64,000 nucleotides of DNA, from assembly GCF_963921235.1 (NCBI RefSeq), contig NC_086108.1:27220001-27284000 (forward strand), written 5' to 3'. Below the pieces are notes generated by a model. That model was not told the origin of the DNA. It worked only from the letters and a program-made list of their open reading frames with translations, and ran no database searches. Within the stretch, counting starts at the first letter, position 1. Each line of letters begins with the position of its first letter. Shown here one piece after another: positions 28,536-52,786 of this stretch. Origin of the DNA: Mobula hypostoma (taxonomy: Eukaryota). The translations under genes and the position numbers were made by a program.

Positions 28536-28823
28536 TGTAGCGATGTGCTACACACAGCGCTAGAATAACCACACGGAGTCGATGAGTTAGAGTTGCGATG
28601 AAAGAGATTTATTCAAACTTCGCGGCCCGCTTTAAAGCCTTCCCGTTCCCGCCCTCCCTGGGCGGGACTACTGTGGGGAATGCATATTCCCAGACCCTTT
28701 CTGCGCGCAGGATTTTCCCCCTGCTGGTGAAGATGGCCTGGCGCCCTTTTTTGCTGCCGGCCCTCTGCCTGCGTGCGCTGTTTCGTGAGCCGGTTCGTGG
28801 GTGCCAGAAAGTGGGTCGCCACA
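28536..28823 (-). repeat. 3' LTR
   Basis: Direct repeat of 34347-34634; adjacent G-rich PPT at about 28827-28836; AATAAA on the minus strand. Confidence 0.97.
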
Positions 28824-31800
28824 TAACCCCCCCCCAGAACTGGCAATACCTCCCCCAATGTCCACAGTCTGGATCGGCCTCTGTTTGGGAGGTCTGCCCC
28901 TGCGCCGCGGTGCCTGAGCCTGGACCGGTTGCGCCAAGTCCACATGGGCCGGTTTGAGTCGGTCCACCGTGAAAACCTCCTCTCTCCCCCCAGTGTCCAG
29001 CACAAACGTGGACCCGTTGTTCCTGATCACCTTAAACGGCCCCTCGTAGGGCCGCTGTAGCGGTGCCCGGTGTCCGCCCCGTCGTACAAAAAGAAACTTA
29101 CAGTTCTGCAGGTCTTTGGGTACGCAGATCGGGATCTGTCCGTGCTGTGAAGTGGGTATGGGGGCCAGGTTACCGAGCCTCTCCCATAGTCTGTCCAGGA
29201 CTGCTGTGGGTTCTTCATCTTGCCCCCTTGGGGCTGGTATGAACTCTCCTGGGACGACCAGGGGCGCGCCGTACACCAACTCGGCCGACGAGGTGTGTAG
29301 ATCCTCTTTGGGTGCCGTGCGGATTCCGAGCAGGACCCAGGGAAGTTCGTCCACCCAGTTAGGCCCCTCCAGGCGGGCCATGAGAGCCGATTTCAGGTGA
29401 CGGTGGAAGCGCTCCACTAGTCCGTTCGACTGTGGGTGGTAGGCAGTTGTGTGGTGTAGCTGTGTTCCTAAAAGTCTGGCCATAGCCGACCACAGGCTGG
29501 AGGTGAACTGGGCGCCCCTGTCGGAGGTAATGTGGGCCGGTACCCCAAAGCGTGCTACCCAGGTTGCGATCAGTGCTCGGGCGCAGGATTCGGAGGTGGT
29601 GTCGCTGAGCGGGACTGCCTCTGGCCATCTGGTGAACCGGTCTATCATAGTTAGGAGGTACTGCACTCCTCGTGACACTGGCAGGGACCCCACGATATCC
29701 ACATGGATGTGGTCGAACCTCCGGCGGGTGGGTTCGAACTGCTGTGGCGGAGCCTTGGTGTGCCGCTGCACCTTGGCCGTTTGGCACTGCATACACGTTT
29801 TGGCCCATTCACTGACCTGTTTACGAAGTCCATGCCACACAAACCTGTTGGAGACCAGCCGGACAGTTGTCCTGATGGAGGGGTGCGCTAAGTTGTGAAT
29901 GGATTCGAACACCCGCCGGTGCCAGGCTGCTGGGACGACGGGGCGGGGTTGGCCAGTAGCTACGTCACATAGTAGGGTCCTCTCACCTGGGCCTACGGGG
30001 AGGTCTTGGAGCTGCAAACCGGAGACTGCAGTCCTGTAACTGGGGATCTCAGCGTCTGCCTGCTGTGCCTCTGCCAGCGCTGCATAGTCCACCCCCTGGG
30101 ACAGGGCCTGTATGGTAGGTCTGGAAAGTGCGTCTGCCACGACATTGTTCTTTCCAGAGACGGATGTCCGTCGTGTACTCGGAGATGTAGGACAGATGTC
30201 GCTGCTGGCGGGACGACCAGGGGTCAGACACCTTAGTGAACGCAAAGGTAAGTGGTTTGTGGTCTGTGAACGCGGTGAAGGGCCTACCTTCTAAGAAGTA
30301 CCTGAAATGCCGGATTGCCAGGTATAGTGCCAATAGCTCCCGGTCGAAAGCACTGTATTTGAGTTCAGGTGGTCGTAGGTGTTTGCTGAAGAATGCCAGG
30401 GTTTGCCAGCGACCCTCGATGAGTTGTTCCAGCACTCCACCGACTGCTGTGTTGGATGCGTCCACCGTGAGGGCAGTAGGAACGTCCGTTCTGGGGTGCA
30501 CTAGCATTGCGGCGTTTGCCAAGGCTTCTTTGGTTTTAACGAAAGCGGTTGCGGCCTCTTCGTTCCAGGTAATGTCCTTGCCCTTACCCGACATTAGAGT
30601 GAACAAGGGGCGCATGGTTCGGGCTACTGAGGGGAGGAAACGGTGGTAGAAATTCACCATACCCACGAATTCCTGCAAGCCTTTGATTGTGTAGGGTCGG
30701 GGGAAGTGGCGGACCGCGTCTACCTTGGCGGGCAGCGGGGTTGCCCCGTCTTTAGTAATCCTGTGGCCCAGGAAGTCGATGGTGTCGAGTCCGAACTGGC
30801 ATTTGGCTGGATTGATTGTAAGGCCGAATTCACTCAGGCGGGAGTAGAGCTGGCGGAGGTGGGACAGATGTTTCTGACAACTACTGCTGGCTATGAAGAT
30901 GTCGTCCAAATAGATGAATGCAAAGTCCAGGTCACGTCCAACCGCGTCCATTAACCGCTGGAAAGTCTGTGCGGCATTCTTTAGACCAAACGGCATTCAG
31001 AGGAATTCGAAAAGTCCGAACGGGGTGATAAGTGCTGTTTAGGGGATGTCGTCCGGATGTACAGGGATTTGATGGTATCCCCGGACGAGGTCTACCTTGG
31101 AAAAGATCCTTGCGCCGTGTAGGTTTGCTGCGAAGTCTTGAATGTGCGGCACAGGGTAGCGGTCTGGCGTTGTAGCCTCGTTCAGTCTGCGGTAGTCACC
31201 GCATGGTCTCCAGCCCCCCGTTGCCTTGGGCACCATGTGAAGGGGGGAGGCCCATGGGCTGTCGGACCGTCGTATGATCCTTAATTCCTCCATCTTCTTG
31301 AACTCCTCCTTCGCCAGTCAGAGCTTGTCCGGGGGAAGCCTTCGAGCATGGGCGTGGAGGGGTGGTCCCTGGGTCGGGATGTGGTGCTGTACTCCGTGTC
31401 TGGGCATGGCTGCCGTGAACTGCGGTGTCAGTACTGATGGGAAATCTGCGAGGACCCTGGTGAATTCATCGTCGGACAGCGTGATGGAGTCCAGATGTGG
31501 GGCTGGCAACTGTGCTTCACCCAGGGAGAACGTTTGAAAAGTCTTGGCGTGGACTAATCGTTTCCCTTGCAAGTCGACCAGCAGGCTGTGGGCTCGTAGA
31601 AAATCTGCCCCCAGCAGTGGTTGGGCCACGGCGGCCAGTGTGAAGTCCCACGTGAACCGGCTGGAGCTGAACTGTAGCTGCACCGTGCGGGTGCCGTAGG
31701 TTCGTATTGCGCTGCCATTAGCGGCCCTCAGGGTGGGTCCCGGTTCTCTGTTGCGGGTGTCGTAACTCGTTGGAGGTAAGACGCTGATCTCCGCTCCGGT

Positions 31801-31903
31801 GTCGGCCAAAATGCGGCGTCCCGACTGCTTGTCCCAGACGTACAGGAGGCTGACCTGATGGCCAGCCGCCGTAGCCATCAGCGGCGGCTGGCCCTGGCGT
31901 TTC
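28824..31903 (-). pseudogene. pol: Gypsy pol (protease, RT, RNase H, integrase)
   Basis: 'LADTGAEIS'; 'FIYLDD'; 'TVDASNTAVGGVL'; HHCC; 'HVDIVG/TSDRGAQF/ERFHR'; stops near 31318, 31039 and 30998, frameshift near 30165. Confidence 0.95.
31860..31893 (-). promoter_or_regulatory. Stem-loop of the gag-pol -1 ribosomal frameshift signal
   Basis: Perfect 12-bp stem GGCCAGCCGCCG/CGGCGGCTGGCC with a 10-nt loop, 5 nt downstream of ...GAAAC; pol is in the -1 frame relative to gag. Confidence 0.75.
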
Positions 31904-33622
31904 ATAGAAACATAGAAACATAGAAAATAGGTGCAGGAGTAGGCCATTCGGCCCTTCGAGCCTGCACCGCCATTTATTATGATCATGGCTGATCATCCAA
32001 CTCAGAACCCAGCCTTCCCTCCATACCCCCTGACCCCTGTAGCCACAAGGGCCATATCTAACTTCCTTTTAAACATAGCTAATGAACTGGCCTCAACAGT
32101 TTGCTGTGGCAGAGAATTCCACAGATTCACCACTCTCTGTGTGAAGAAGTTTTTCCTAACCTCGGTCCTAAAAGGCTTCCCCTCTATCCTCAAACTGTGA
32201 CCCCTCGTTCTAGACCTCCCCAACATCGGGAACAATCTTCCCGCATCTAGCCTGTCCAATCCCTTTAGGATCTTATACGTTTCAATCAGATCCCCCCTCA
32301 ATCTTCTAAATTCCAATGAGTACAAGCCCAGTTCATCCAGTCTTTCTTCATATGAAAGACCTGCCATCCCAGGAATCAATCTGGTGAACCTTCTTTGTAC
32401 TCCCTCTATGGCAAAGATGTCTTTCCTCAGATTAGGGGACCAAAACTGCACACAATACTCCAGGTGTGGTCTCACCAAGGCCTTGTACAACTGCAGTAGT
32501 ACCTCCCTGCTCCTGTACTCGAATCCTCTCGCTATAAATGCCAGCATACCGTTCGCCTTTTTCACCGCCTGCTGTACCTGCATGCCCACTTTCAATGACT
32601 GGTGTATAATGACACCCAGGTCTCGTTGCACCTCCCCTTTTCCTAATCGGCCACCATTCAGATAATAATCTGTTTTCCTATTTTTGCCACCAAAGTGGAT
32701 AACTTCACATTTATCCACATTAAATTGCATCTGCCATGAGTTTGCCCACTCACCCAACCTATCCAAGTCACCCTGCATCCTCTTAGCATCCTCCTCACTG
32801 CTAACACTGCCACCCAGCTTTGTGTCATCCGCAAACTTGGAGATGCTGCATTTAATTCCCTCATCCAAGTCATTAATATATATTGTAAACAACTGGGGTC
32901 CCAGCACTGAGCCTTGCGGTACCCCACTAGTCACCGCCTGCCATTCTGAAAAGGTCCCGTTTATTCCCACTCTTTGCTTCCTGTCTGCTAACCAATTCTC
33001 CACCCACACCAATACCTTACCCCCAATACCGTGTGCTTTAAGTTTGCACACTAATCTCCTGTGTGGGACCTTGTCAAAAGCCTTTTGAAAATCCAAATAT
33101 ACCACATCCACTGGTTCTCCCCTATCCACTCTACTAGTTACATCCTCAAAAAATTCTATGAGATTCGTCAGACATGATTTTCCTTTCACAAATCCATGCT
33201 GACTTTGTCCGATCATTTCACCGCTTTCCAAATGTGCTGTTATCACATCCTTGATAACTGACTCCAGCAGTTTCCCCACCACCGACGTTAGGCTAACCGG
33301 CCTATAATTCCCCGGTTTCTCTCTCCCTCCTTTTTTAAAAAGTGGGGTTACATTAGCCACCCTCCAATCCTCAGGAACTAGTCCAGAATCTAACGAGTTT
33401 TGAAAAATTATCACTAATGCATCCACTATTTCTTGGGCCACTTCCTTAAGCACTCTGGGATGCAGACCATCTGGCCCTGGGGATTTATCTGCCTTCAATC
33501 CCTTCAATTTACCTAACACCACTTCCCTACTAACATGTATTTCGCTCAGTTCCTCCATCTCACTGGACCCTCTGTCCCTTACTATTTCTGGAAGATTATT
33601 TATGTCCTCCTTAGTGAAGACA
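31904..33622 (-). mobile_element. 5'-truncated young CR1 LINE nested in the Gypsy
   Basis: Uninterrupted RT; (TTTCTATG)n tail; TSD GTTTC (31899-31903, 33623-33627); very similar to 45568-47282. Confidence 0.97.
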
Positions 33623-33834
33623 GTTTCCTGGGAATTTGCAGGGCGGTCTGCAGCGGCGGGCCTCCGTGCCCCACCGCTGCTGGTAGAAACACCATTGTTC
33701 GTTGGGCTCCTCACTCCCATCGCCGGGTTTTGTAGGCTCTGCTGCCGGGCCTGGTCTGGTCTGTCGTTGGGCACACGGCTTGGTAATCTGTCCGACGGAT
33801 GGCCCTCTCTCTTTCCTGGCATTCCACAGCGCAT
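32002..33834 (-). CDS. Chimeric 610-aa ORF: about 70 aa of out-of-frame gag sequence fused to an intact CR1 RT domain
   Basis: ATG at 33834; junction '...ANSQET|VFTKEDINN'; 'KFADDTKLGG'; ends at the native CR1 stop. Expression unknown. Confidence 0.5.
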   Translation of the reverse strand: MRCGMPGKREGHPSDRLPSRVPNDRPDQARQQSLQNPAMGVRSPTNNGVSTSSGGARRPAAADRPANSQETVFTKEDINNLPEIVRDRGSSEMEELSEIHVSREVVLGKLKGLKADKSPGPDGLHPRVLKEVAQEIVDALVIIFQNSLDSGLVPEDWRVANVTPLFKKGGREKPGNYRPVSLTSVVGKLLESVIKDVITAHLESGEMIGQSQHGFVKGKSCLTNLIEFFEDVTSRVDRGEPVDVVYLDFQKAFDKVPHRRLVCKLKAHGIGGKVLVWVENWLADRKQRVGINGTFSEWQAVTSGVPQGSVLGPQLFTIYINDLDEGIKCSISKFADDTKLGGSVSSEEDAKRMQGDLDRLGEWANSWQMQFNVDKCEVIHFGGKNRKTDYYLNGGRLGKGEVQRDLGVIIHQSLKVGMQVQQAVKKANGMLAFIARGFEYRSREVLLQLYKALVRPHLEYCVQFWSPNLRKDIFAIEGVQRRFTRLIPGMAGLSYEERLDELGLYSLEFRRLRGDLIETYKILKGLDRLDAGRLFPMLGRSRTRGHSLRIEGKPFRTEVRKNFFTQRVVNLWNSLPQQTVEASSLAMFKRKLDMALVATGVRGYGGKAGF

Positions 33835-34306
33835 CTGCTCGGGCTGCCACCTCCCGGGGGTTGCTGAAATCTGCGTCGGACAGCAGCAGGCATATGTCCT
33901 CGGGCAGTTGCTCTAGGAACGCCTGCTCAAACATGAGGCAGGGTTTGTGTCCTTCAGCCAGGGCCAGCATCTCGTTCATTAATGCTGACGGCGGCCTGTC
34001 TCCCAAACCATCCAGGTGCATTAAGCGGCGTGCTCGTTCGCGCCGTGAGAGTCCGAAAGTCCTTATGAGCAGGGCTTTGAATGCTGTGTATTTGCCGTCC
34101 TCCGGGGGCGACTGTATAAACTCCTCAACTTGTGCAGTAGTCTCCTGGTCGAGGGAGCTCAGCACGTAGTAGTAGCGAGTGGACTCCGAGGTTATCTGCC
34201 GAATGTGGAATTGTGCTTCTGCTTGTTCGAACCATAAATGGGGTCGCAGCGTCCAGAAGCTTGGCAGTTTTAACGAAACTGCGTGAACAGATGCAGCGTC
34301 GGTCAT
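33623..34306 (-). CDS. gag: Gypsy gag
   Basis: Open frame 'MTDAASVHAVSLKLPSFW...WCFYQQRWGTEARRCRPPCKFPGN', truncated by the CR1 insertion a few codons before its end. Confidence 0.85.
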
Positions 34307-34330
34307 CTCTGGTCCAAATATCGTTTGGGC

Positions 34331-34344
34331 CGTCGGGGTCACCA
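34331..34344 (-). other. Primer-binding site, tRNA-Trp
   Basis: TGGTGACCCCGACG 2 nt inside the 5' LTR; complementary to the 3' end of vertebrate tRNA-Trp. Confidence 0.85.
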
Positions 34345-34346
34345 AT

Positions 34347-34634
34347 TGTAGCGATGTGCTACACACAGCGCTAGAATAACCACACGGAGTCGGTGAGTTA
34401 GAGTTGCGATGAAAGAGATTTATTCAAACTTCGCGGCCCGCTTTAAAGCCTTCCCGTTCCCGCCCTCCCTGGGCGGGACTACTGTGGGGAATGCATATTC
34501 CCAGACCCTTTCTGCACGCGGGATTTTCCCCCTGCTGGTGAAGATGGCCTGGCGCCCTTTTTTGCTGCCGGCCCTCTGCCTGCGCGCGCTGTTTCGTGAG
34601 CCGGTTCGTGGGTGCCAGAAAGTGGGTCGCCACA
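34347..34634 (-). repeat. 5' LTR
   Basis: Direct repeat of 28536-28823. Confidence 0.97.
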
Positions 34635-35139
34635 TTAGCATATTTACACAAGGGGAATGCTCACACTTCTTTAACCATGCCATCTTGCACAATTACCTGC
34701 TGCCAGGTTTTTATGAAGTGGAGACATTAGGAAACTAATGACAAGAACATTAGCTAAATATTACATCCTAAAATTCTGACAGCAGAAGTGCAGGCAACTG
34801 TGCACTGTGGAGGCAATTAAGGTGTGAAGATTTCCCCAGAGTGAAAATCTTAACATAAAGCTGCTGTTTATAAACCAAAGAACATGCCTGATATCCTCTT
34901 CTAATAGTTCATTCAACATCTCATTTACCATGCTGTCTTGTAAGTATATGGCATTAGTTATTTGTGAGAATCAGCTTCTTCTTCTCAGACACCCTCAGCA
35001 TGTAACTAAAAGTCCAATGTTTGGTAGACAACTAGCATGCCAATGAAAAGATGGGTTGAACAGCCTACCTGCTTTTTTGTTATAACTAACTTGTTAAAGA
35101 TACATCTCAGAATGGGATAGACATTAGGTATGTCGTAAT

Positions 35140-35500: not shown

Positions 35501-35619
35501 ATTTTTTATATATATATATATATATAGTTTACCACATTCACCCCTCCTTTTTTTTAAAAAGAGTCCCGCGGGGTGAAGTGACTGACAATATTTACAACAA
35601 GTATATTTACAGGTTAAGT

Positions 35620-38600
35620 CTATCAGGCGGTCGAGTCCATCACTGTGACCTACGTAGCACCAGTGGTGATTGCACCAGCGACGGCAGTTGTGCTGGCTCC
35701 GGCCTGACTTCAGGTGCCAGCACGTTAGGCGTCGGTAATCCCTCGTGCGTGTGCGTCGCGCCCGGTATGGGAGTGTCATGTGGTGTCTGTGTAGCGCTTG
35801 GAGTGTACGGTGTCTTTCGGGTATATATATCGGTGGATATGGGGTTAATAGTCACCATGGAGTGTTCAGGATAGGGGCCCGGTGCTCCTGCGGGCACTAG
35901 GTCACAGATGGAAACCGTGTCCTCCCGCCCATCAGGTAAAACCACATAGGCATACTGGGGGTTTGCATGAAGTAAGTGAACCCTCTCGACCATCGGGGAG
36001 TATTTATCGCTCCTCGCATGTTTCCGGAGCAGCACTGGCCCCGGGGACGTCAGCCAAGTGGGTAGGGTGGTCCCAGTGGTCGACTTTCTAGGAAAAGAAA
36101 AGAGTCGGTCATGAGGGGTGGCATTCGTGGCTGTGCATAACAGGGAGCGGATGGATGGAGTGCCTCGAGAAGGACCTCCTGCCAGCGGGAGACCAGCAGT
36201 CCCTTTGACCTGAGGGCTAAGAGTGTGGCTTTCCACACCGTGGCATTCTCCTTCTCTACCTGTCCATTCCCCTAGGGATTATAGCTCGTTGCAATACCCC
36301 TAGACAGCAGGTATTGGTGCAGCTCGTCACTTATAAATGAGGACCCTCTGTCACTGTGGATATAGCATGGGTATCCGAACAGAGTGAAGAGCTTGCGCAG
36401 GGCTTTTATAACTGACGTGATAGTAGTGTCGGGGCAGGGATGGTGAAGGGGAACTGTGAGTACTCGTCGATAACATTAAGAAAATACACATTGCGGTCGG
36501 TGGAGGGAAGGGGGCCCTTAAAGTCAACACTCAGTCGCTCAAAGGGGCGGGTGGCCTTGATGAGTTGTGCCTTTTCGGGTCGGTAGAAGTGCGGTTTGCA
36601 CTCTGCGCAGACTTGGCAGTCCCTGGTCATCATCCTGATCTCTTCAAGGGAATAAGGCAGGTTCCGGGCTTTCACGAAGTGGAAAAGCCGGGTGACCCCC
36701 TGGGTGGCAAAGATCTACATGTAGGGTGTATAGCCGGTCGATCTGCGTGCTGGCACACGTTCCCCGGGACAGGGCATCGGAGGGCTCGTTGAGCTTCCCA
36801 GGCCTGTACATGATGCAGAGTTGAAGGTGGAGAGTTCGATTCTCCACCTCAGAATTTTATCATTTTTGATTTTGCCCCGCTGTTGGTTACTAAACATGAA
36901 TGCGACTGAGCACTGGTCAGTCAACAGGGTGAACCTTTTGCTGGAGAGATAGTGCCTCCAGTGCCTAACAGCTTCCACTATGGCCTGGGCCTCTTTCTCC
37001 ACTGCGGAGTGCCGAATTTCAGGGCCTTGAAGGGTACGGGAGAAGAACGCCACTGGTCTTCCCACCTGGTTGAGGGTAGCAGCCAGCGCAAAGTCAGAAG
37101 CGTCACTCTCTACCTGGAAGGGAATGGCCTCATCCACCACATGCATTGCTGCTTTGGCAATGTCCCCTTTTATGCAGCTGAAGGCCGCGCGGGCCTCGGC
37201 TGAGAGGGGGAATGTGGTGGACTTGACCAGGGGGTGGGCCTTGTCTGCGTAGTTAGAGACCCATTGGGCATAATATGAAAAGAAGCCCAGGCACCTTTTG
37301 AGGGCTCTGAGCATGTTGGGAAGAGGGAGTTCCAACAGGAGGCGCATACGGTCAGGGTCAGGGCCAATGACTCCATTCTCCACGACACACCCAAGGATAG
37401 CAAGTTGGGTGGTTCCGAACACACACTTGTCCTTGTTATAGGTGAGACTGAAAGCTTTGGCCGCTTGGAGAAATTTTTGGAGATTGTTGTCACGATCCTG
37501 CCGGTCATGACCGCAGATAGTGATGTTATCCAGATAATGGGAACGTGGCCTTCAGTTGGCACTGGTCCACCATCCAGTCCATTTCCCTCTGGAAGACAGA
37601 TACACCATTCGTGACACCAAAGGGGACACGCAGGAATTGATAAAGCCTGCCGTCCGCCTCGAAGGCAGTGTAAGGGCTGTCATCCCAGTGGATGGGGAAC
37701 TGATGGTAAGCGAATTTTAGGTCTATGGTCGAGTACACCTTGTACTGTGCTATCTGATTGACCATATCCGCGATGCAGGGTAGAGGGTACACGTCGAGCT
37801 GTGTGAACCTATTGATGGTCTGGCTACAGTCCGTGACCATCCTATTCTTCTCCCCATTCCGAACAACCACCACCTGCTCCCTCCATGGACTTGTGCTTGC
37901 CTCAATGACCCCCTCCCTGAGCAGCCACTGCACCCCTGACTTAAGGAAGGCTCTGTCCCCCGCGTTGTACCTCCTGCTTTTAGTTGCCACAGGTTTACAG
38001 TCGGGGTCAGGTTGGCGAACAGCGGTGGGGGAGGGATCCTGAGGGTGGAGAGGCCGCAAGTGGTGTCGGTAGTGTGGCTGTTGGCATGGTGTTGGGTGGG
38101 ATGTGCGGGTCAGTGTGTGGGGGTGGTCAGTAGCGGGGTATGTGATGTATCCCTACAAAACTGGGGATTTACAACAGTAATTGGTGGGAGGGGCTCATCA
38201 TACTCTATTGTCACATTTTTCAGGTGGCTCTGGAAGTCGCGCCCCGATAGCACAGGGGCACACAGTTAAGGCGTGACCAGTAACGTAAAGTCTCAATATT
38301 CTGTGTCCTGCACCACTAGCGTCGCTACACAACACCCCCCCCACCCCCCGGATATCTGTTGTATACAACCCAGAAGCCATGGTGACCCTTTGACTTACCG
38401 GCCGTATCACGAGTCTGCAATGCTGCACCGTGTCCAGGTGGATAAAACTCTCCGTGCTGCTCGTGTCAAACAGGCAGCTTGTCCTGCGCCCCTCCTCCAG
38501 GATGTCCATCATTGACCTTGCAAGCTGGTGGGGAGCGCTTTGGTCGAGGGTCGCAGAGGCCAGGGTTGAGTCGCTGTCTTGGTCCGGCGCGGTGGGGTGC

Positions 38601-39524
38601 CCCATGAGTACCCGTTGGTCTTAGGCAGTGAGAAGTGGCGCCGACCAAGATGGCCGCCCCCATGTCTCGCACGTGGTGGTGGCGTGCAGGGAAGATGGCG
38701 ACAGGCAACATGGCAACCCCCATGTCTCGCACATGGTGGCGGCGTGCAGTCAAGATGGCGACCCCCATGCCTCGCACGCGGCGCTGCTCGATCCTACTCG
38801 CAGTTTGGACTTACAGGCCTTGGTGAAGTGGCCCTTCTTTCCGCAGCTGGAGCAGGTAGCTTGTCGGGCCGTGCAGTGTTTCCGGGGGTGCTTCTCCAGT
38901 CCGCAGAAGTAGCACTTCGCGGACTCACGACTGGCAGCAGCCGAGGGAGATTTGCCGGTGGGTTGCGGGGTCTGCGGCGCCCACGAGGCCATCGGGGGAT
39001 CGCGTGCCTGGACAGCCTCGGAATTGTGCAGAGCGGTCTCCAGCATGTCGGCCAGCTCCATTGCCGAACGTAAGGTGAGATCAGATTTTTCCAGCAGCCG
39101 CTGGCGAATATACACTGACCTGGTCCCCGTGACAAGAGCGTCTCTCACCAGGAGCTCCGCATGCTGTTCTGCAGTCAGTTCTTGGCAGCCGCAGGTCTGC
39201 ACGAGCGTCTGTAGTGGCCGGACAAACTCAGCACTCGACTCCCCGGGTCGTTAAGCGATACCGTGCATAGACGGTGTTTATCAGCTGCAAGTATTGTCCT
39301 TTGAGGACGCTCATCACACCATCATAGCTCGGCTGGTCTCTGATCATCGAGTAGACCTATGGACTGACCCAGGAAAAGAGAACTCTGTTCTTCGTTGTGG
39401 ACTCTGTCACTTCAATTGCCTCTAGGTATGATTCGAAGCCGGCCAGCCAGAGTTCAAAAGCGTTTCCAGTTTCAGGTGTTTGCGGGTTGAGGTCTAACTT
39501 GTCGGGTCTCAGAACACGTTCCAT
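35620..39524 (-). pseudogene. Gypsy gag-pol with multiple frameshifts
   Basis: ATG 39524 'MERVLRPDKLDL'; two CCHC knuckles; 'FDTSSTES'; 'PFGVTNG', 'YLDN'; 'ESDASDFAL'; 'SVDFKGPLP'. Confidence 0.9.
38648..38785. repeat. Tandem repeat (about 3 units of 45-60 bp) at the gag-protease linker
   Basis: Recurring 'aagatggc..cccccatg(t/c)ctcgcac.tggtggcggcgtgcag'. Confidence 0.85.
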
Positions 39525-39819
39525 GTTTTAAAATTACTGCTAATAAAATTGATGCACCATCAATAACTCCAAAAGACTGGAAGTAGAGTAAATACTGAAA
39601 GGCTTTTATTAGCAGTAAAATGTGACCTCCAGCATGCTGAGTGTCTGCCCGTGGACTGAGAGGAGGAGCCATGGCCCAATCACCTTTATTCAGGGGTCTG
39701 TGGGAGGAGCCACAGGGGCAGTCAGCAGAGGGGTGTGTCCAGCCAGGTAACCCAGTTACAACATATATATATGGTTTACCACAGTCTGACTACACAACAC
39801 TTTTTTCTGTAACACTTTA

Positions 39820-40263
39820 AGGCTGATTTATACTTGTGCGTACGAGCTACACCGTAGGCCTGATTTACACTCTTGCGTAGCTCTACGCTGTAGTGAGCAT
39901 GCATAATTGTGTCTGCGTCGCTCTGCAATTCACCGCCAAAACGCTAATTGGCGGTGGGCTTTCTATGCCAATGTGTTCAGTTTCTTCCTGAGAGACATGG
40001 ATGAGGAAATGCATTTCAAATATTTTCGGAGGTCGGCAGGTAGATTTGACAATTTGGTTCATCGTCTCCAACCATTTACTTCGCATCAGTGTACAGACAT
40101 GGCGGAGAAAAGCAACCGGAAATGTGTAGGAGGAAAAGCGATGCTACCAAGCGGAACAATCACAGTTGTTGTGGTCTGCGTCGCCGTGACGCGTGAGTTA
40201 CATTTTTGGGGAGGTGCACGTCACCCTACGGCGTACATTTGACGCCGAAGTATAAATTGGGCT
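39820..40263 (+). mobile_element. PIF/Harbinger-derived MITE
   Basis: Imperfect TIRs 'aggctgatttatactt'/'aagtataaattgggct' flanked by TTA/TAA; internal peptide 'LRDMDEEMHFKYFRRSAGRFDNLVHRL' resembles a Harbinger transposase N-terminus. Confidence 0.75.
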
Positions 40264-40635: not shown

Positions 40636-42232
40636 CAAACCCCATTTCCAGAAGAGTTGGGATATTTTCCAACATGTAATGAAAACGAAAACCTGTGATA
40701 TGTTAATTCATGTGAAACTTTATTTAACTGACAAAAGTACAAAGAAAAGATTTTCAAAACGCAAACAACAGGTTCAACAGTTTTACTGATCAACTTAATT
40801 GTATTTTGTAAACATACACAAATTTAGAATTTGATGGCTGCAACACACTCAACAAAAGTTGGGACAGAGGCATGTTTACCATTGTGTTACATCACCTTTC
40901 CTTTCAATAACACTTTTTAATCGTTTTGGAACTGAGGATAATAAGTGTAGTAGATTTGCAATTGGAAATTTTGTCCATTCTTGCTTGATATAAGATTTCA
41001 GCTGCTCAACAGTCCGTGGTCTCCGTTGTCTGATTCTGCTCTGCATGATGCGCCATACATTTTCAATAGGAGATAGATCTGGACTGGCAGCAGGCCAGTC
41101 AAGCACGTGCACTCTGTGTCTATAAAGCCATGCTATTGTAGCCTTGCAGAATGTGATCTGACATTGTCCTGCTGAAATAAGCATGGACGTCCCAGGAAGA
41201 GAAGTTGCCTTGATGGCAACATATGTCTCTCTAAAATCCTAATATACACCTCAGAGTCAATGGTACCTTCACATACATGCAACTCACCCATGCCGTGGGC
41301 ACTGATGCACCCCCATACCATCACAGATGCTGGCTTTTGCACCTTTCGCTGATAACAATCTGGATGGTCGTTTTCATCTTTGGCACGGAGAACTAAACGC
41401 CCGTTTTTTCTGAAAACTAGCTGAAATGTGGACTCATCTGACCACAGCACACGGTTCCACCGTCTTTCAGTCCATCTGAGATGAGCTCAGGCCCAGAGAA
41501 TTAGTTGGCTTTTCTGCATAGAGTTGATGTATGGCCTCCTCCTTGAGTAATACAGTTTCAAGTTGCATTTCTGGATGCAGCGACGGATTGTGTTGAGTGA
41601 CAATGGTTTTCTGGAGTACTCCCGAGCCCAGGTAGCTATAATTGTCACGGTAGCATGACGGTTTCTTAGGCAGTGCCGCCTGAGGACTCGAAGATCACGC
41701 GCATTCAACAGTGGTTTCTGACCTTGCCCTTTACGCACTGAGATGTCTCTGAATTCTCTGAATCTTTTCACAATATTATGTACTGTAGATGTTGAAAGAT
41801 CTAAATTCTCTGCAACCTTGCATTGAGAAATGTTCCTTTTGAACTGACTAACAATCCTCTCACGAATTTTGGCACAAAGGGGTGAGCCACAACCCATCCT
41901 TGCTTGCAAAGACTGAGCCTTTGATGGACTCACCTGCTACCAATTAGCCTGCTTAATGTGGAGTCTTCCAAACCAATGATACTTGAATATTCCGTGCACT
42001 TTTCAATCTTATTTTAACTCTGTCCCAACTTTTGTTGAGTGTGTTGCAGCCATCAAATTCTAAATTTGTGTATATTTATAAAATATAATTAAGTTGGTCA
42101 GTAAAACTATTGAAAATCTTTTCTTTGCACTTTTGTCAGTTAAATAAAGGTTCACATGAATTAACATATCACAGATTTTTGTTTTTATTGCATTTTGGAA
42201 AATATCCCAACTTTTCTGGAAATGGGGTTTTG
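40636..42232 (-). mobile_element. Full-length Tc1-like transposon with long (about 230-bp) IR/DR-type TIRs
   Basis: TA TSD (40634-40635, 42233-42234); termini CAAACCCCATTTCCAGAA; outer and inner 'agttggga' repeats. Confidence 0.95.
40876..41903 (-). pseudogene. Tc1 transposase (DD34E), frameshifted
   Basis: Three ORF pieces: paired-like HTH 'STSTVHNIVKRF', 'WSDES', 'QQDN', 'SPDLSPIENVW'. Confidence 0.92.
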
Positions 42233-44161: not shown

Positions 44162-47100
44162 TTGGGGGGTGGGAATCAAATTAAAGAGGCAAGGCGTGAG
44201 GAGGTTAGTTCACAACAGAGGGATGGGAACCAGTGCAGAGAGACAGAGGGGTGTAAAGTGAGCGTAGAAGCAAAAAGTACAAAGGAGAAAAGTAAAAGTG
44301 GCAGGCCGACAAATCCAGGGCAAGCATTAAAAAGGGCCACTTTTCAACATAATTGTATAAGGGCTAAGAGAGTTGTAAAAGAGCACCTGAAGGCTTTATG
44401 TGTCAATGCAAGGAGCATTCGTAATAAGGTGGATGAATTGAAAGTGCAGATTGTTATTAATGATCATGATATAGTTGGGATCACAGAGACATGGCTCCAG
44501 GGTGACCAGGGATGGGAGCTCAACGTTCAGGGATATTCAATATTCAGGAGGGATAGACATGAAGGAAGGGGAGGTGGGGTGGCGTTGCTGGTTAAAGAAG
44601 AGATTAACGCAATAGAAAGGAAAGCCATAAACCGGGAAGATGTGGAATCGATATGGGTAGAGCTGCGTAACACTAAGGGGCAGAAGACGCTGGTGGGAGT
44701 TGTGTACAGGCCACCTAACAGTAGTAGTGAGGTCGGAGATGGTATTAAACAGGAAATTAGAAATGTGTGCAATAAAGGAACAGCAGTTATAATGGGTGAC
44801 TTCAATCTACATGTAGACTGGGTGAACCAAATTGGTAAAGGTGCTGAGGAAGAGGATTTCTTGGAATGTATGCGGGATGGTTTTTTGAACCAACATGTCG
44901 AGGAACCAACTAGAGAGCAGGCTATTCTGGACTGGGTTTTGAGCAATGAGGAAGGGTTAATTAGCAATCTTGTCGTGAGAGGCCCCTTGGGTAAGAGTGA
45001 CCATAATATGGTGGAATTCTTCATTAAGATGGAGAGTGACATAGTTAATTCAGAAACAAAGGTTCTGAACTTAAAGAGGGGTAACTTTGAAGGTATGAGA
45101 CGTGAATTAGCTAAGATAGACTGGCAAATGACACTTAAAGGATTGACGGTGGATATGCAATGGCAAGCATTTAAAGGTTGCATGGATGAACTACAACAAT
45201 TGTTCATCCCAGTTTGGCAAAAGAATAAATCAAGGAAGGTAGTGCACCCGTGGCTGACAAGAGAAATTAGGGATAGTATCAATTCCAAAGAAGAAGCATA
45301 CAAATTAGCCAGAGAAAGTGGCTCACCTGAGGACTGGGAGAAATTCAGAGTTCAGCAGAGGAGGACAAAGGGCTTAATTAGGAAGGGGAAAAAAGATTAT
45401 GAGAGAAAACTGGCAGGGAACATAAAAACGGACTGTAAAAGCTTTTATAGATATGTAAAAAGGAAAAGACTGGTAAAGACAAATGTAGGTCCCCTGCAGA
45501 CAGAAACAGGTGAATTGATTATGGGGAGCAAGGACATGGCAGACCAATTGAATAATTACTTTGGTTCTGTCTTCACTAAGGAGGACATAAATAATCTTCC
45601 AGAAATAGTAAGGGACAGAGGGTCCAGTGAGATGGAGGAACTGAGCGAAATACATGTTAGTAGGGAAGTGGTGTTAGGTAAATTGAAGGGATTGAAGGCA
45701 GATAAATCCCCAGGGCCAGATGGTCTGCATCCTAGAGTGCTTAAGGAAGTAGCCCAAGAAATAGTGGATGCATTAGTGATAATTTTTCAAAACTCGTTAG
45801 ATTCTGGACTAGTTCCTGAGGATTGGAGGGTGGCTAATGTAACCCCACTTTTTAAAAAAGGAGGGAGAGAGAAACCGGGGAATTACAGACCGGTTAGCCT
45901 AACGTCGGTGGTGGGGAAACTGCTGGAGTCAGTTATCAAAGATGTGATAACAGCACATTTGGAAAGCGGTGAAATGATCGGACAAAGTCAGCATGGATTT
46001 GTGAAAGGAAAATCATGTCTGACGAATCTCTAGGATGTAACTAGTAGAGTGGATAGGGGAGAACCAGTGGATGTGGTATATTTGGATTTTCAAAAGGCTT
46101 TTGACAAGGTCCCACACAGGAGATTAATGTGCAAACTTAAAGCACACGGTATTGGGGGTAAGGTATTGGTGTGGGTGGAGAATTGGTTAGCAGACAGGAA
46201 GGAAAGAGTGGGAATAAACGGGACCTTTTCAGAATGGCAGGCGGTGACTAGTGGGGTACCGCAAGGCTCAGTGCTGGGACCCCAGTTGTTTACAATATAT
46301 ATTAATGACTTGGATGAGGGAATTAAATGCAGCATCTCCAAGTTTGCGGATGACACAAAGCTGGGTGGCAGTGTTAGCAGTGAGGAGGATGCTAAGAGGA
46401 TGCAGGGTGACTTGGATAGGTTGGGTGAGTGGGCAAACTCATGGCAGATGCAATTTAATGTGGATAAATGTGAAGTTATCCACTTTGGTGGCAAAAATAG
46501 GAAAAGAGATTATTATCTGAATGGTGGCCGATTAGGAAAAGGGGAGGTGCAACGAGACCTGGGTGTCATTATACACCAGTCATTGAAAGTGGGCATGCAG
46601 GTACAGCAGGCGGTGAAAAAGGCGAATGGTATGCTGGCATTTATAGCGAGAGGATTCGAGTACAGGAGCAGGGACGTACTACTGCAGTTGTACAAGGCCT
46701 TGGTGAGACCACACCTGGAGTATTGTGTGCAGTTTTGGTCCCCTAATATGAGGAAAGACATCTTTGCCATAGAGGGAGTACAAAGAAGGTTCACCAGATT
46801 GATTCCTGGGATGGCAGGACTTTCATATGAAGAAAGACTGGATGAACTGGGCTTGTACTCGTTGGAATTTAGAAGATTTGAGGGGGGATCTGATTGAAAT
46901 GTATAAGATCCTAAAGGGATTGGACAGGCTAGATGCAGGAAGATTGTTCCCGATGTTGGGGAAGTCCAGAACGAGGGATCACAGTTTGAGGATAGAGGGG
47001 AAGCCTTTTAGGACCGAGATTAGGAAAAACTTCTTCACACAGAGAGTGGTGAATCTGTGGAATTCTCTGCCACAGGAAACTGTTGAGGCCAGTTCATTGG

Positions 47101-47183
47101 CTATATTTAAGAGGGAGTTAGATATGGCCCTTGTGGCTACGGGAGTCAGGGGGTATGGAGGGAAGGCTGGGGCGGGGTTCTGA
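44162..47183 (+). pseudogene. CR1 ORF2 (APE endonuclease plus RT)
   Basis: 'NARSI', 'GITETWL', 'GDFN', 'SDH', 'FADD'; net 12-nt deletion creating TAG at 46031, and a +1 frameshift near 46877. Confidence 0.95.
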
Positions 47184-47329
47184 GTTGGATGATCAGCCAT
47201 GATCATAATAAATGGCGGTGCAGGCTCGAAGGGCTGAATGGCCTACTCCTGCACCTATTTTCTATGTTTCTATGTTTCTATGAAAATAAATGTAACATAT
47301 GGATTTTGATAATAAGTCACTTTGAACTT

Positions 47330-50882: not shown

Positions 50883-51758
50883 TTATTCTTGTTGTTTGCG
50901 TCCACACTAGACATTTTGCAAAATATCTCTGTCCACATTAAAATGGATATTTGGGAGAATCTGCTCCTACTGGGCATGCGCATACACATCTACAGAAAAC
51001 AAGCAAAAGGGAAACGGTATAATATTTACGTTTCCATGGCAGTGTTGTGCTATTTCCATTGGTCAAAAACTAGAGTACCAACAACAACAGCGAAAGAAAG
51101 TTTTCAACAATGTCTTCGAGGAATACAAAGAAAATCTCCGCTGGAAAAAGCAGATCGAACTTCTTCGTTTAGAATGACAATGAAGTCGAGCTGTTTCTGC
51201 GAGTTACAAACGACTACAAAGTCAGCAAAGCAGTGGAGAACGTGGAGATGTTTAACTCCAGACAAGCTATTAACGTAGACAATAAAGTAAACAACACATG
51301 CATGAAGCCGTCCTCTACCCAAGATCAACAAGAGAGTGGAATCTTCTGCCGCCAGACCTGCGCAGTATTTCTGACATTAATATTTTTAAAGATAGACTCA
51401 ATCAAATCAATTTAGGGGATCTAGTCAAATAAGCTCACTTTACAATTTAACTCTCACGCCGTTCACACCGACTGCGTGATATAACAGCTGTCCAGCAGTG
51501 CTTGCGCAGTACCAAGCAGAAGCAGAAAAAGCATTGTTGTTGTGGTGTTGTCATGACAGCATTTTTAAATATCTCCATTTACCCCATCGACACTACAATG
51601 TGCAACAATCATTTTCAAATTTACACACTCTGGAGAGTGTTTTAGAAAAGCTCCATTTTTGGGGGATGAAAACCCCGTTTCAATGTGGACGGAGGGTCCA
51701 AACGAAGAGAAAAAGCTTCATTTTCAAAATTATCCGGCGTAGTGTGGACGTAGACTTC

Positions 51759-52786
51759 GGGTACATCCACACTGCGCCGGATAATTTTGTATACAAAGCT
51801 TTTTCTCTTCGTTTTGACGTTCTGTCCACACCGAAATGGCGTTTTCATCCCCCGAAAATTGAGATTTTCAGAAACGATCTCCAGATTGAATAAATCTGAA
51901 AACGCCTACTATCCGTCGTAGTGTGTACAGGGTAACTGGAGAGATTTAAAAACGCTGTCATGACTACACCACAACAACAATGCTTTTTCTGCTTCTGCTT
52001 GGTACTGTGCAAGCTGTTATAACGCACAGTCGGTGTGAATGGCGTGAGAGTTAAACTGTAAAGTGAGCTTTTTCGACTATTTAAAAACGCTGTCATGACG
52101 TGCCGGAACAGATAGCCGCAGCGCGGCATTTCGTTGTCTTCTTGAACGCAACCACCTAACAATTTCAGAACAGACGGCAACGAGACTGAAGCCAGAAGGG
52201 TTGGAAGTGTACTCACCAAATACTTTGACCCATAGCTTACTGAATAAATAAGTATACTCACTTTGCCCTGTTTTCGTCCCTGCTTGTATGAACATGGTTC
52301 ACCTATTTATGCAAGTACCTGCTCTGACAATAGATGTGTAACAGCCTAATGTAACATTGTATGGAAATACAAGATAACACTGATGCAGACGTTTTATACA
52401 TTTAACAAGGTGCTTTATTAATGCAACAGAGTTAGTCAGTTTTTCAATGTTCGTCGTCAGCCGGGTCATACTGTCCGTGAACTCCCTGTCGGTTGCCTCC
52501 ATACGCTCCAGTATTTGTTTTTTTAGTGTTAAGTCCTCCTGAGCAAGAGCCAAGAGCAAGTCCTTTTAAGTTTTTCTACTCTGTGACTGGACAAACGCGC
52601 ACCAAGTATACCATTTCCTCTTCGTTTGTTTTCTGTGTGTCCTGCGCATGTCCAGTAGGAGGAGATTTACCCAAATATCCATCTAATGTGGAAGGAGATA
52701 TTTTGAAAAACGTTTAGTGTGGACGCCTGTCGTTTTTACTCGAAACCGGCATTTTCAAAATTATCTGGCGTAGTGTGGACGTAGCC
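51759..52786 (-). mobile_element. Non-autonomous PIF/Harbinger copy B, inverted relative to copy A
   Basis: Termini GGGTACATCCACACT...AGTGTGGACGTAGCC|TTA; ORF 52299-52559 'LLALAQEDLTLKKQILERMEATDREF' looks like a coiled coil of the Myb-like accessory protein. Confidence 0.85.

What the first reader, a model, noticed from the sequence alone, without database searches (positions are those of the whole stretch)
39534..39618. Gypsy with no tRNA PBS but a perfect 15-bp PBS-position/LTR inverted repeat (self-priming candidate)
Seen: just inside the 5' LTR there is no TGG. Instead 39534-39548 (TTACTGCTAATAAAA) is the exact reverse complement of LTR positions 39604-39618 (TTTTATTAGCAGTAA). On the element strand the LTR arm contains AATAAA. 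Known: Tf1/sushi-type chromoviruses self-prime by pairing the PBS with the transcript 5' end. Inference: this element, which has two CCHC knuckles and no visible chromodomain, may self-prime, or may use the hairpin to mask the 5'-LTR poly(A) signal (the hairpin cannot form at the 3' LTR), or both.
Basis: partly seen in the sequence, partly recalled or inferred. Interest (0 to 1): 0.7.

Follow-up and report, generated by a model that had tools for sequence, protein, structure and literature searches.

The report
Self-priming signature in animal Gypsy clade
This decayed jumping gene and its distant animal relatives have no docking site for a host tRNA; the spot where DNA copying starts instead matches a stretch of their own terminal repeat letter for letter, so they likely prime themselves with their own RNA, as yeast Tf1 does, although they do not group with the Tf1-type elements sampled here.

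Summary
Confirmed. 39534-39548 is the exact complement of 39604-39618. It begins 1 nt inside an LTR end mapped independently at 39550. The host looks like a ray. The element is a broken copy from a compact Gypsy clade (single ORF, two CCHC knuckles, chromodomain in 0 of 36 relatives). 43 of 45 loci with a located gag start carry the same inverted repeat. In 26 families the arms are 25 different 11-mers; pairs 1-13 give 331 Watson-Crick, 0 G-U and 7 mismatched cells; none has TGG. All 18 readable outgroup Gypsy elements have TGG. Ray copies vary at paired positions. Wobble-free covariation fits a primer that is copied into the PBS, so self-priming is likely (0.7). A poly(A) hexamer lies in the arm in 19 of 26 families, so masking is at most a second role. 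Open: the transcription start (a TATA/Inr-like pair lies about 40 nt upstream of the arm), the cut site, and an origin independent of chromoviruses (AU p 0.22 for sisterhood, 0.013 for grouping with fungal-type ones). My searches found no paper on this clade; this scan noted it before on other DNA. New variant of a known kind.

The parts
39550..39783 (-). 5' LTR, 234 bp, TG...CA
   Evidence: loose ends with unlike flanks at 39550 and 39783 in contigs of related copies; sequence
39685..39690 (-). AT-rich hexamer at a TATA-box position, 33 nt before the Inr-like A (promoter role inferred)
   Evidence: a TATA-box-like motif stands here in 4 contigs of run X1 (loose ends)
39654..39659 (-). Inr-like TCAGTC; candidate transcription start near 39657 (inferred, not mapped)
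39604..39618 (-). LTR arm, the predicted self-primer; holds AATAAA at 39610-39605; predicted 3' end at 39604
39551..39603 (-). rest of the LTR between the arms, starting GCC (RCC in 20 of 26 families); folds as an inner stem; would be the template of minus-strand strong-stop DNA
39549..39549 (-). 1-nt spacer between the LTR's terminal CA and the PBS-position arm
39534..39548 (-). PBS-position arm, exact complement of 39604-39618, no TGG
38753..39524 (-). gag (ATG at 39524), interrupted; two CCHC knuckles
38201..38620 (-). protease region, interrupted (assigned by position and likeness to intact relatives; no Pfam hit for this piece)
36718..38152 (-). reverse transcriptase and RNase H, in two frames
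   Evidence: Pfam RVT_1 and RT_RNaseH; 89% identical to a Mobula hypostoma protein
35643..36714 (-). integrase, in several pieces, no chromodomain
   Evidence: Pfam rve
35537..35555 (-). polypurine tract
   Evidence: sequence
35516..35536 (-). remnant of the 3' LTR, lost beyond a TA run

Best explanation
The inverted repeat marks the primer site of a compact, chromodomain-less Gypsy clade that likely starts reverse transcription with its own RNA instead of a tRNA. Shown: the inner arm lies at the primer-binding position, 1 nt inside the 5' LTR, and matches an LTR arm exactly in family after family with different sequences. Inferred: (1) in the transcript the LTR arm pairs with the PBS over 13-19 bp; (2) the RNA is cut at the 3' end of the arm, at the conserved AAA|RCC junction next to a small RCCT..AGGY hairpin, probably by the element's RNase H as in Tf1; (3) the freed 3' end primes minus-strand DNA over the remaining 20-70 nt of LTR, which then jumps to the 3' R region; (4) plus-strand synthesis copies the primer into the new PBS, which would explain why the arms change together and never use G-U; (5) where the arm holds AATAAA/ATTAAA, the same helix may also hide the 5' poly(A) signal. 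The copy in this window is broken and cannot move by itself.
For: Position: the arm starts 1 nt after the LTR end in the window and in relatives with two LTRs, and it is absent after 3' LTRs. Spread: 43 of 45 loci with a located gag start show the repeat; a 44th, L024, has the complement in its 3' LTR up to the contig end. Covariation: in 26 families, pairs 3-11 are Watson-Crick in 26 of 26, against 0.38-0.66 for cross-family pairing at the variable positions 4-11; 2 of 650 cross pairs reach 11 bp and none 13. Pairs 1-13: 331 WC, 0 G-U, 7 mismatches; 25 distinct 11-mers; TGG in 0 of 26. In a sequence-only alignment of 20 of the 26 families, 14 of 16 pairs change on both sides (79 cells), 0 of 500 shuffles reach that, and slid controls are 33-47% paired against 96%; RNAalifold finds the same helix. 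Ray copies: the only arm variants among the 40 rows shown are at paired places, 39537 with 39615 (99% and 79% of depth in X9; 0 and under 0.5% in X1 and X3) and 39540 with 39612 (99.9% and 99.5% in X9). Control: 18 of 18 other Gypsy elements with a readable LTR junction, Mag-like ones and the second element of this window among them, have TGG within 0-5 nt and at most 7 nt of self-complement. Precedent: Tf1 pairs its first 11 bases with the PBS and RNase H cuts after base 11 (PMC7175516, passages); about half of Tf1 cDNA keeps a PBS copy at its 3' end (PMC11042837, passages).
Against: No cut, primer or cDNA end was observed. The transcription start is unmapped: only contigs were available and no start or end sites were listed. 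In the ray LTR a TATA/Inr-like pair suggests a start near 39657, 39 nt before the arm, so the primer would carry a long unpaired leader or need a second cut, unlike Tf1. A conserved A-G at -11/-10 (A in 16 of 26, G in 21 of 26) would instead fit an 11-nt primer, yet pairing above cross-family level runs to about position 16, and the ray arm has T at -11. No consistent TATA position was found across families. L057 has no such repeat in 118 nt upstream of gag, and L035 and L038 have mismatches at the priming end. Family representatives were chosen as the member with the longest run, and the 20-row alignment left out L003, L035, L038, L043, L071 and L073; both choices favour clean pairing. The read variants are unphased, and 90 of 130 rows were not shown; in X1 and X3 the frequencies at 39540 and 39612 differ (39% vs 8%, 14% vs 27%).
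Confidence: 0.7

Rival explanations
1. Still tRNA-free priming, but the arm comes from the 3' LTR copy at the far end of the RNA, or from a second RNA molecule, so that the genome ends pair before copying starts.
For: The 3' end of the RNA always holds the arm with its upstream letters, which would explain pairing beyond position -11 wherever transcription starts. The DNA cannot tell the two LTR copies apart.
Against: The local 5' fold is favourable (z -3.95) and carries a conserved hairpin at the junction (13 of 17 vs 1.2 in shuffles). The Tf1 precedent uses the 5' copy. A cut after the 3' arm would remove the R sequence needed for strand transfer on that molecule (inference).
Confidence: 0.12
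2. The helix is kept only as an RNA structure that hides the 5' LTR poly(A) signal, and priming happens in some other way.
For: AATAAA or ATTAAA lies at the end of the arm in 19 of 26 families; the helix can form locally only at the 5' LTR.
Against: 7 of 26 families keep the duplex without the hexamer in the arm, and some of these or their close kin have a hexamer downstream, outside the helix (L009, L015, L025). A purely structural helix should accept G-U, as the neighbouring stem does (13 of 88 pairs, partly by construction of the search), but the duplex has 0 in 338 cells. The register to the LTR end is fixed to the base, and no other primer site exists.
Confidence: 0.08
3. A tRNA fragment or another host small RNA primes at this site, and the LTR match is incidental.
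For: Half-tRNA primers exist in plant copia lineages (PMC6317226, passages). I had no animal tRNA library to screen against.
Against: 25 different 11-mers in 26 families, each matching its own LTR; no TGG; no tRNA-like Rfam match at 39300-39900 (2 weak unrelated hits).
Confidence: 0.03
4. A DNA-level process (hairpin formation, conversion between the arms, or end processing) keeps the repeat, without a role in priming.
For: Strict Watson-Crick matching is also what DNA-templated repair would give.
Against: It leaves the element without any minus-strand primer, and does not explain the fixed 1-nt register, the RCC junction, or the absence of the repeat in tRNA-primed outgroups.
Confidence: 0.04

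Closest known systems
Tf1/Tf2 of Schizosaccharomyces pombe, Tj1 and the Tf1/sushi group of chromoviruses (PMC7175516, PMC4600332, PMC10085805; passages read)
   Same: No tRNA PBS; the sequence just inside the 5' LTR is complementary to an LTR segment; a predicted internal cut frees the primer; further stems lie beside the primer duplex.
   Different: No chromodomain and no SH3_Tf2-1 match in 36 relatives; two CCHC knuckles; separate long-stemmed clade in the RT-RH-IN tree; duplex of 13-19 bp rather than 11; arm usually ends in the poly(A) hexamer; arm not shown to be the RNA 5' end; a short local RCCT..AGGY hairpin is seen, and the three-duplex pretzel was not tested.
Plant Tcn1 chromoviruses and TAR (Houba, Osr-1) copia elements (PMC6317226, passages read)
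   Same: Self-priming predicted from the same criterion: at least 10 bp of complement between the LTR and a site 0-5 bp inside it. TAR shows that the trait also occurs outside chromoviruses.
   Different: Other superfamily or clade, and plant hosts; the present clade is in animals (rays and sharks, a crustacean, cnidarians, Trichinella/Trichuris by protein names).
Mag-lineage Gypsy elements (here: loci with a PFG[VI]SSAP RT motif, the label is recalled)
   Same: Two-knuckle gag in one ORF with pol (recalled for Mag; L215 and L216 show one strict knuckle match each); adjacent to the focal clade in the trees.
   Different: Six loci of that scan with readable LTRs (L212, L213, L214, L216, L217, L219) all have a TGG PBS; the join in the tree is between two long branches and is flagged as unsafe.
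Cigr-1 of Ciona and the unplaced MolGy clades (PMC6238403, PMC8556966; passages read)
   Same: Recalled, not from a call: Cigr-1 has an LTR of about 245 bp, one ORF of about 1200 aa and a SURL-like gag, which fits this clade's size (elements 4.0-4.4 kb, LTR 150-300 bp).
   Different: Not testable: no reference sequence was at hand and the original paper was not held. In their main texts neither paper read contains the words PBS or primer.

Membership tests
Ty3/Gypsy LTR retrotransposon | gag-PR-RT-RH-IN order between TG..CA LTRs, with PPT | tested here: met
   5-bp target duplications in most relatives with both LTRs
tRNA-primed Gypsy | TGG-starting PBS within a few nt of the 5' LTR | tested here: not met
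   0 of 26 families against 18 of 18 readable outgroup elements
Tf1/sushi chromoviruses | PBS complementary to a segment of the own LTR | tested here: met
Tf1/sushi chromoviruses | chromodomain at the integrase C-terminus | tested here: not met
   0 of 36 relatives at E 0.01; none in the window piece; the same library finds it in 6 of 19 outgroup proteins
Tf1/sushi chromoviruses | placement within the fungal/vertebrate chromovirus group by RT-RH-IN | tested here: not met
   grouping with 5 fungal-type loci (3 with a Pfam chromodomain) rejected, AU p 0.013; no named Tf1 or sushi sequence was in the set
Chromoviruses in the wide sense | common origin with the chromovirus core | tested here: inconclusive
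   free trees place the clade outside a 99-supported core, but one clade of both is not rejected, AU p 0.22; long branches, quick search
Tf1/sushi chromoviruses | primer is the first 11 nt of the transcript | tested here: inconclusive
   A-G conserved at -11/-10, but pairing extends to about 16 and a TATA/Inr-like pair lies upstream in the ray LTR; no raw RNA reads
Tf1/sushi chromoviruses | RNase H cut that frees the primer | not testable with these tools
   RNase H domain present; activity not observed
Tf1/sushi chromoviruses | three-duplex pretzel structure | not tested
   definition in PMC10085805; only a local hairpin was scored
Mag lineage | RT placement inside Mag, and a tRNA PBS | tested here: not met
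   separate 100-supported clades; Mag-like loci have TGG; sisterhood remains possible
Cigr-1 clade | RT clustering with Cigr-1 | not testable with these tools
   no reference sequence; paper not held
Troyka | 3-bp target-site duplication (recalled) | tested here: not met
   5-bp duplications in relatives; PMC12440569 has no passage on primers

The most novel reading that the evidence does not exclude
A widespread animal Gypsy lineage evolved self-priming independently of Tf1/sushi, from tRNA-primed Mag-like ancestors. It cuts its primer out of the inside of the transcript, tens of nucleotides after the cap, at a junction marked by a small hairpin, and it uses the poly(A) signal itself as the primer's 3' end, so that one helix couples priming to read-through of the 5' LTR.
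Probability: 0.3. Interest if true: 0.78.

Novelty: new variant of a known kind. Interest (0 to 1): 0.58.

Why it matters
Among Gypsy elements, the papers read tie self-priming to the Tf1/sushi chromoviruses. A large chromodomain-less animal clade with the same logic would mean either a second origin or a much older, wider trait. These elements would escape control by tRNA supply and tRNA fragments (inference), and LTR annotation tools that require a tRNA PBS would miss or down-rank them. The exact, wobble-free covariation gives a sequence test for primer copying that can be applied to other clades, and the fixed AAA|RCC junction predicts a cut site to the base.

Tried and rejected
No whole genome is held for the window, so copies were studied through run contigs. 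Viral contigs gave no relative. No listed run was on record as RNA, and all were contigs; no RNA start or end could be read, which is no evidence on expression. Search for a shared TATA position upstream of the arm across families: none consistent. Splice-acceptor reading of the T-rich..AG upstream part of the arm (prompted by note e1-7811049): rejected, because pairing continues through and upstream of the AG, AAG/GAG forms are common, and the ray arm lacks it. The hairpin after the arm is not significant family by family; only the RCCT..AGGY motif count is (13 of 17 vs 1.2), and the ray copy lacks the AGGY form. ARAGORN found no tRNA in the window. The ESM Atlas gave only generic Gag clusters. 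A gag search for a named clade member gave 25 unnamed proteins. PDB search: best hit Ty3 Gag-Pol, not clade-informative. Tree rows left out: P0018 (motif not found), and P0019, P0044, P0107, P0122, L016 as near-duplicates (those present); a 35-row subset served for the AU tests. In one search, 6 of 24 loci with a long direct repeat (L116, L126, L132, L138, L158, L165) had no readable junction and were not scored; no chromovirus locus gave a positive control. Literature: nine searches found no paper describing self-priming in a chromodomain-less animal Gypsy clade. The library lacks most subscription papers and Repbase Reports; two papers asked for by recalled id were not held; I did not read Butler 2001 or Lin and Levin 1997; the supplements of PMC6238403 were listed but not read and could name this clade.

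Full report
Observation. Only one other perfect inverted repeat of that length and spacing exists in the window, and 50 shuffles gave none. The element lies on the minus strand. Contigs of related copies from public runs leave the window into unlike flanks at 39550 and 39783, which fixes a 234-bp LTR with TG..CA ends without using the repeat. The inner arm begins at 39548, one base inside, where a primer-binding site belongs, and reads TTT, not TGG. The outer arm ends 54 nt before the LTR end and holds AATAAA. Gag starts at 39524. Gag, protease, RT-RNase H and integrase follow in Gypsy order but are interrupted by stops and frame changes. A polypurine tract precedes a 3' LTR that survives for only about 21 nt. 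The copy is old and inactive. Its closest proteins come from Mobula, Hypanus and Hemitrygon, so the host is probably a ray.

The clade. The RT-RNase H piece finds 657 long relatives (120 listed) at 55-89% identity, with names from sharks and rays, a crustacean, cnidarians, Trichinella and Trichuris, and many unnamed marine metagenome proteins. Most of the 67 proteins over 1050 aa are single ORFs of about 1200 aa with two CCHC knuckles. None of 36 scanned has a chromodomain or SH3_Tf2-1 match, while the same library finds a chromodomain in 6 of 19 outgroup proteins. Relatives with both LTRs are 4.0-4.4 kb and mostly show 5-bp target duplications.

The repeat across the clade. Two scans gave 88 loci (80 of 420 confirmed metagenome hits kept). 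A gag start could be placed in 44 of them and in the window. 43 of these 45 have an inverted repeat of at least 9 bp whose inner arm lies just before gag. L024 is cut by its contig end but has the complement in its 3' LTR; L057 is a true miss. Where both LTRs exist, the arm follows the 5' LTR and host flank follows the 3' LTR. The 43 loci fall into 26 families. Taking the best member of each, pairs 3-11 are Watson-Crick in all 26, pairs 12-13 in 24, and pairing falls to cross-family level by positions 17-18. Over pairs 1-13 there are 331 Watson-Crick cells, 7 mismatches and no G-U; the arms are 25 different 11-mers; none of the 26 has TGG. An arm from one family rarely fits another family's site (2 of 650 reach 11 bp). 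A sequence-only alignment of 20 of the 26 families puts both arms in register; 14 of 16 pairs change on both sides, beyond all 500 shuffles and all slid controls, and RNAalifold predicts the same helix. These counts lean towards clean cases, because representatives were picked by longest run and six families were left out of the alignment. Within the ray family, the only arm variants among the 40 rows shown lie at paired places (39537/39615 and 39540/39612) and are nearly fixed together in run X9; they are unphased, and their frequencies differ in X1 and X3.

Control. Other Gypsy elements were collected by two RT-motif scans. Of 24 with a long direct repeat around RT, 18 had a readable junction; all 18 have TGG within 0-5 nt and at most 7 nt of self-complement. 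They include Mag-like loci and the second Gypsy element in this window. Six were unreadable, and no chromovirus gave a positive control.

Mechanism. A retroelement's PBS is re-made in each cycle by copying its primer (established knowledge); for Tf1, about half of the cDNA keeps a PBS copy at its 3' end (PMC11042837, passages). If the primer is the LTR arm, any change in the arm is copied into the PBS, which gives exact double changes without G-U steps. That is the pattern found. A helix kept only for RNA stability should accept G-U, as the stem beside it appears to do (13 of 88 pairs, partly by construction). The arm ends at a conserved AAA|RCC junction, and RCCT is followed by AGGY within 22 nt in 13 of 17 families against 1.2 in shuffles; the ray copy forms a longer inner stem instead. 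By analogy with Tf1, where RNase H cuts after the 11-nt primer (PMC7175516, passages) in a multi-duplex structure (PMC10085805, passages), I infer a cut at this junction. None of these steps was observed. AATAAA or ATTAAA ends the arm in 19 of 26 families; the other 7 keep the duplex without it, and some have a hexamer further down. Masking of the 5' poly(A) signal is therefore a plausible side role but not the cause of conservation.

What stays open. The start of transcription is unknown. A and G are favoured at -11 and -10 from the arm's end (16 and 21 of 26), as an 11-nt Tf1-like primer would predict. But pairing extends further, and the ray LTR has an Inr-like TCAGTC at 39659-39654 with a TATA-position motif 33 nt upstream, which would put the start 39 nt before the arm. 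No shared promoter position emerged in other families, and only contigs were available. The arm could also be supplied by the 3' LTR copy.

Placement. In RT-RH-IN trees the clade is one group with support 100 on a long stem, outside a chromovirus core with support 99, and next to Mag-like rows by a join flagged as possible long-branch attraction (quick searches). Grouping with five fungal-type chromovirus loci is rejected (AU p 0.013); sisterhood with the whole core is not (p 0.22). No named Tf1, sushi, Mag or Cigr-1 sequence was in the set; outgroup labels rest on Pfam domains and recalled motifs. So the element works like Tf1 but fails the Tf1/sushi membership tests of chromodomain and placement. 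An independent origin is likely but not shown. The clade may be Cigr-1 or a MolGy clade (recalled resemblance; PMC6238403 and PMC8556966, passages, do not mention PBS or primer in their main texts).

Novelty. The papers read list self-priming for Tf1/sushi, plant Tcn1 and TAR copia (PMC6317226; PMC4600332; PMC6934838; PMC5006619; PMC3601003; all passages only). Nine searches found none for a chromodomain-less animal Gypsy clade, but the library lacks most subscription papers and Repbase Reports, and two papers were not held. This scan had noted the same feature on other DNA, in this and other genomes; I saw those notes after reaching my reading and do not count them as support. Verdict: real, clade-wide, likely self-priming; a new variant of a known kind; interest 0.58.

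Noticed in passing
window 28536-34635 (-): A second Gypsy element (CsRn1-like gag, label recalled) with 289-bp LTRs 98.6% identical and a TGG tRNA-type PBS; it served as an internal control.
   Followed up: partly
window 31900-33623 and 45567-47285: A CR1-type LINE (label recalled) inserted inside the second Gypsy element is 96-99% identical to another copy 12-15 kb away in opposite orientation, so it is a young family.
   Followed up: no
window 51422-52079: A long imperfect palindrome (arms of 253 nt, 9 nt apart, plus outer arms), probably a non-autonomous DNA transposon; it holds the only other perfect inverted repeats of 15 bp or more with short loops.
   Followed up: no
window 40637-42230: Inverted arms of about 230 nt at 93-95% around a 1.1-kb core, just upstream of the element; probably a DNA transposon.
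   Followed up: no
window 35516-35536 and 39762-39773: The LTR has a TA run about 10 nt after its start; the 3' LTR breaks off in an expanded form of this run.
   Followed up: no
L029:2212-2330 and upstream LTR; L078: An 18-nt stretch right after the PBS arm also occurs as a direct repeat in the U3 part of the same LTR.
   Followed up: no
L071:150-260: The LTR-end plus PBS junction is duplicated about 55 nt apart; the count used the second copy.
   Followed up: no
L001-L008, L089-L219: Many prokaryotic genome assemblies in the collection hold contigs with eukaryotic LTR retrotransposons, i.e. host or environmental contamination.
   Followed up: partly
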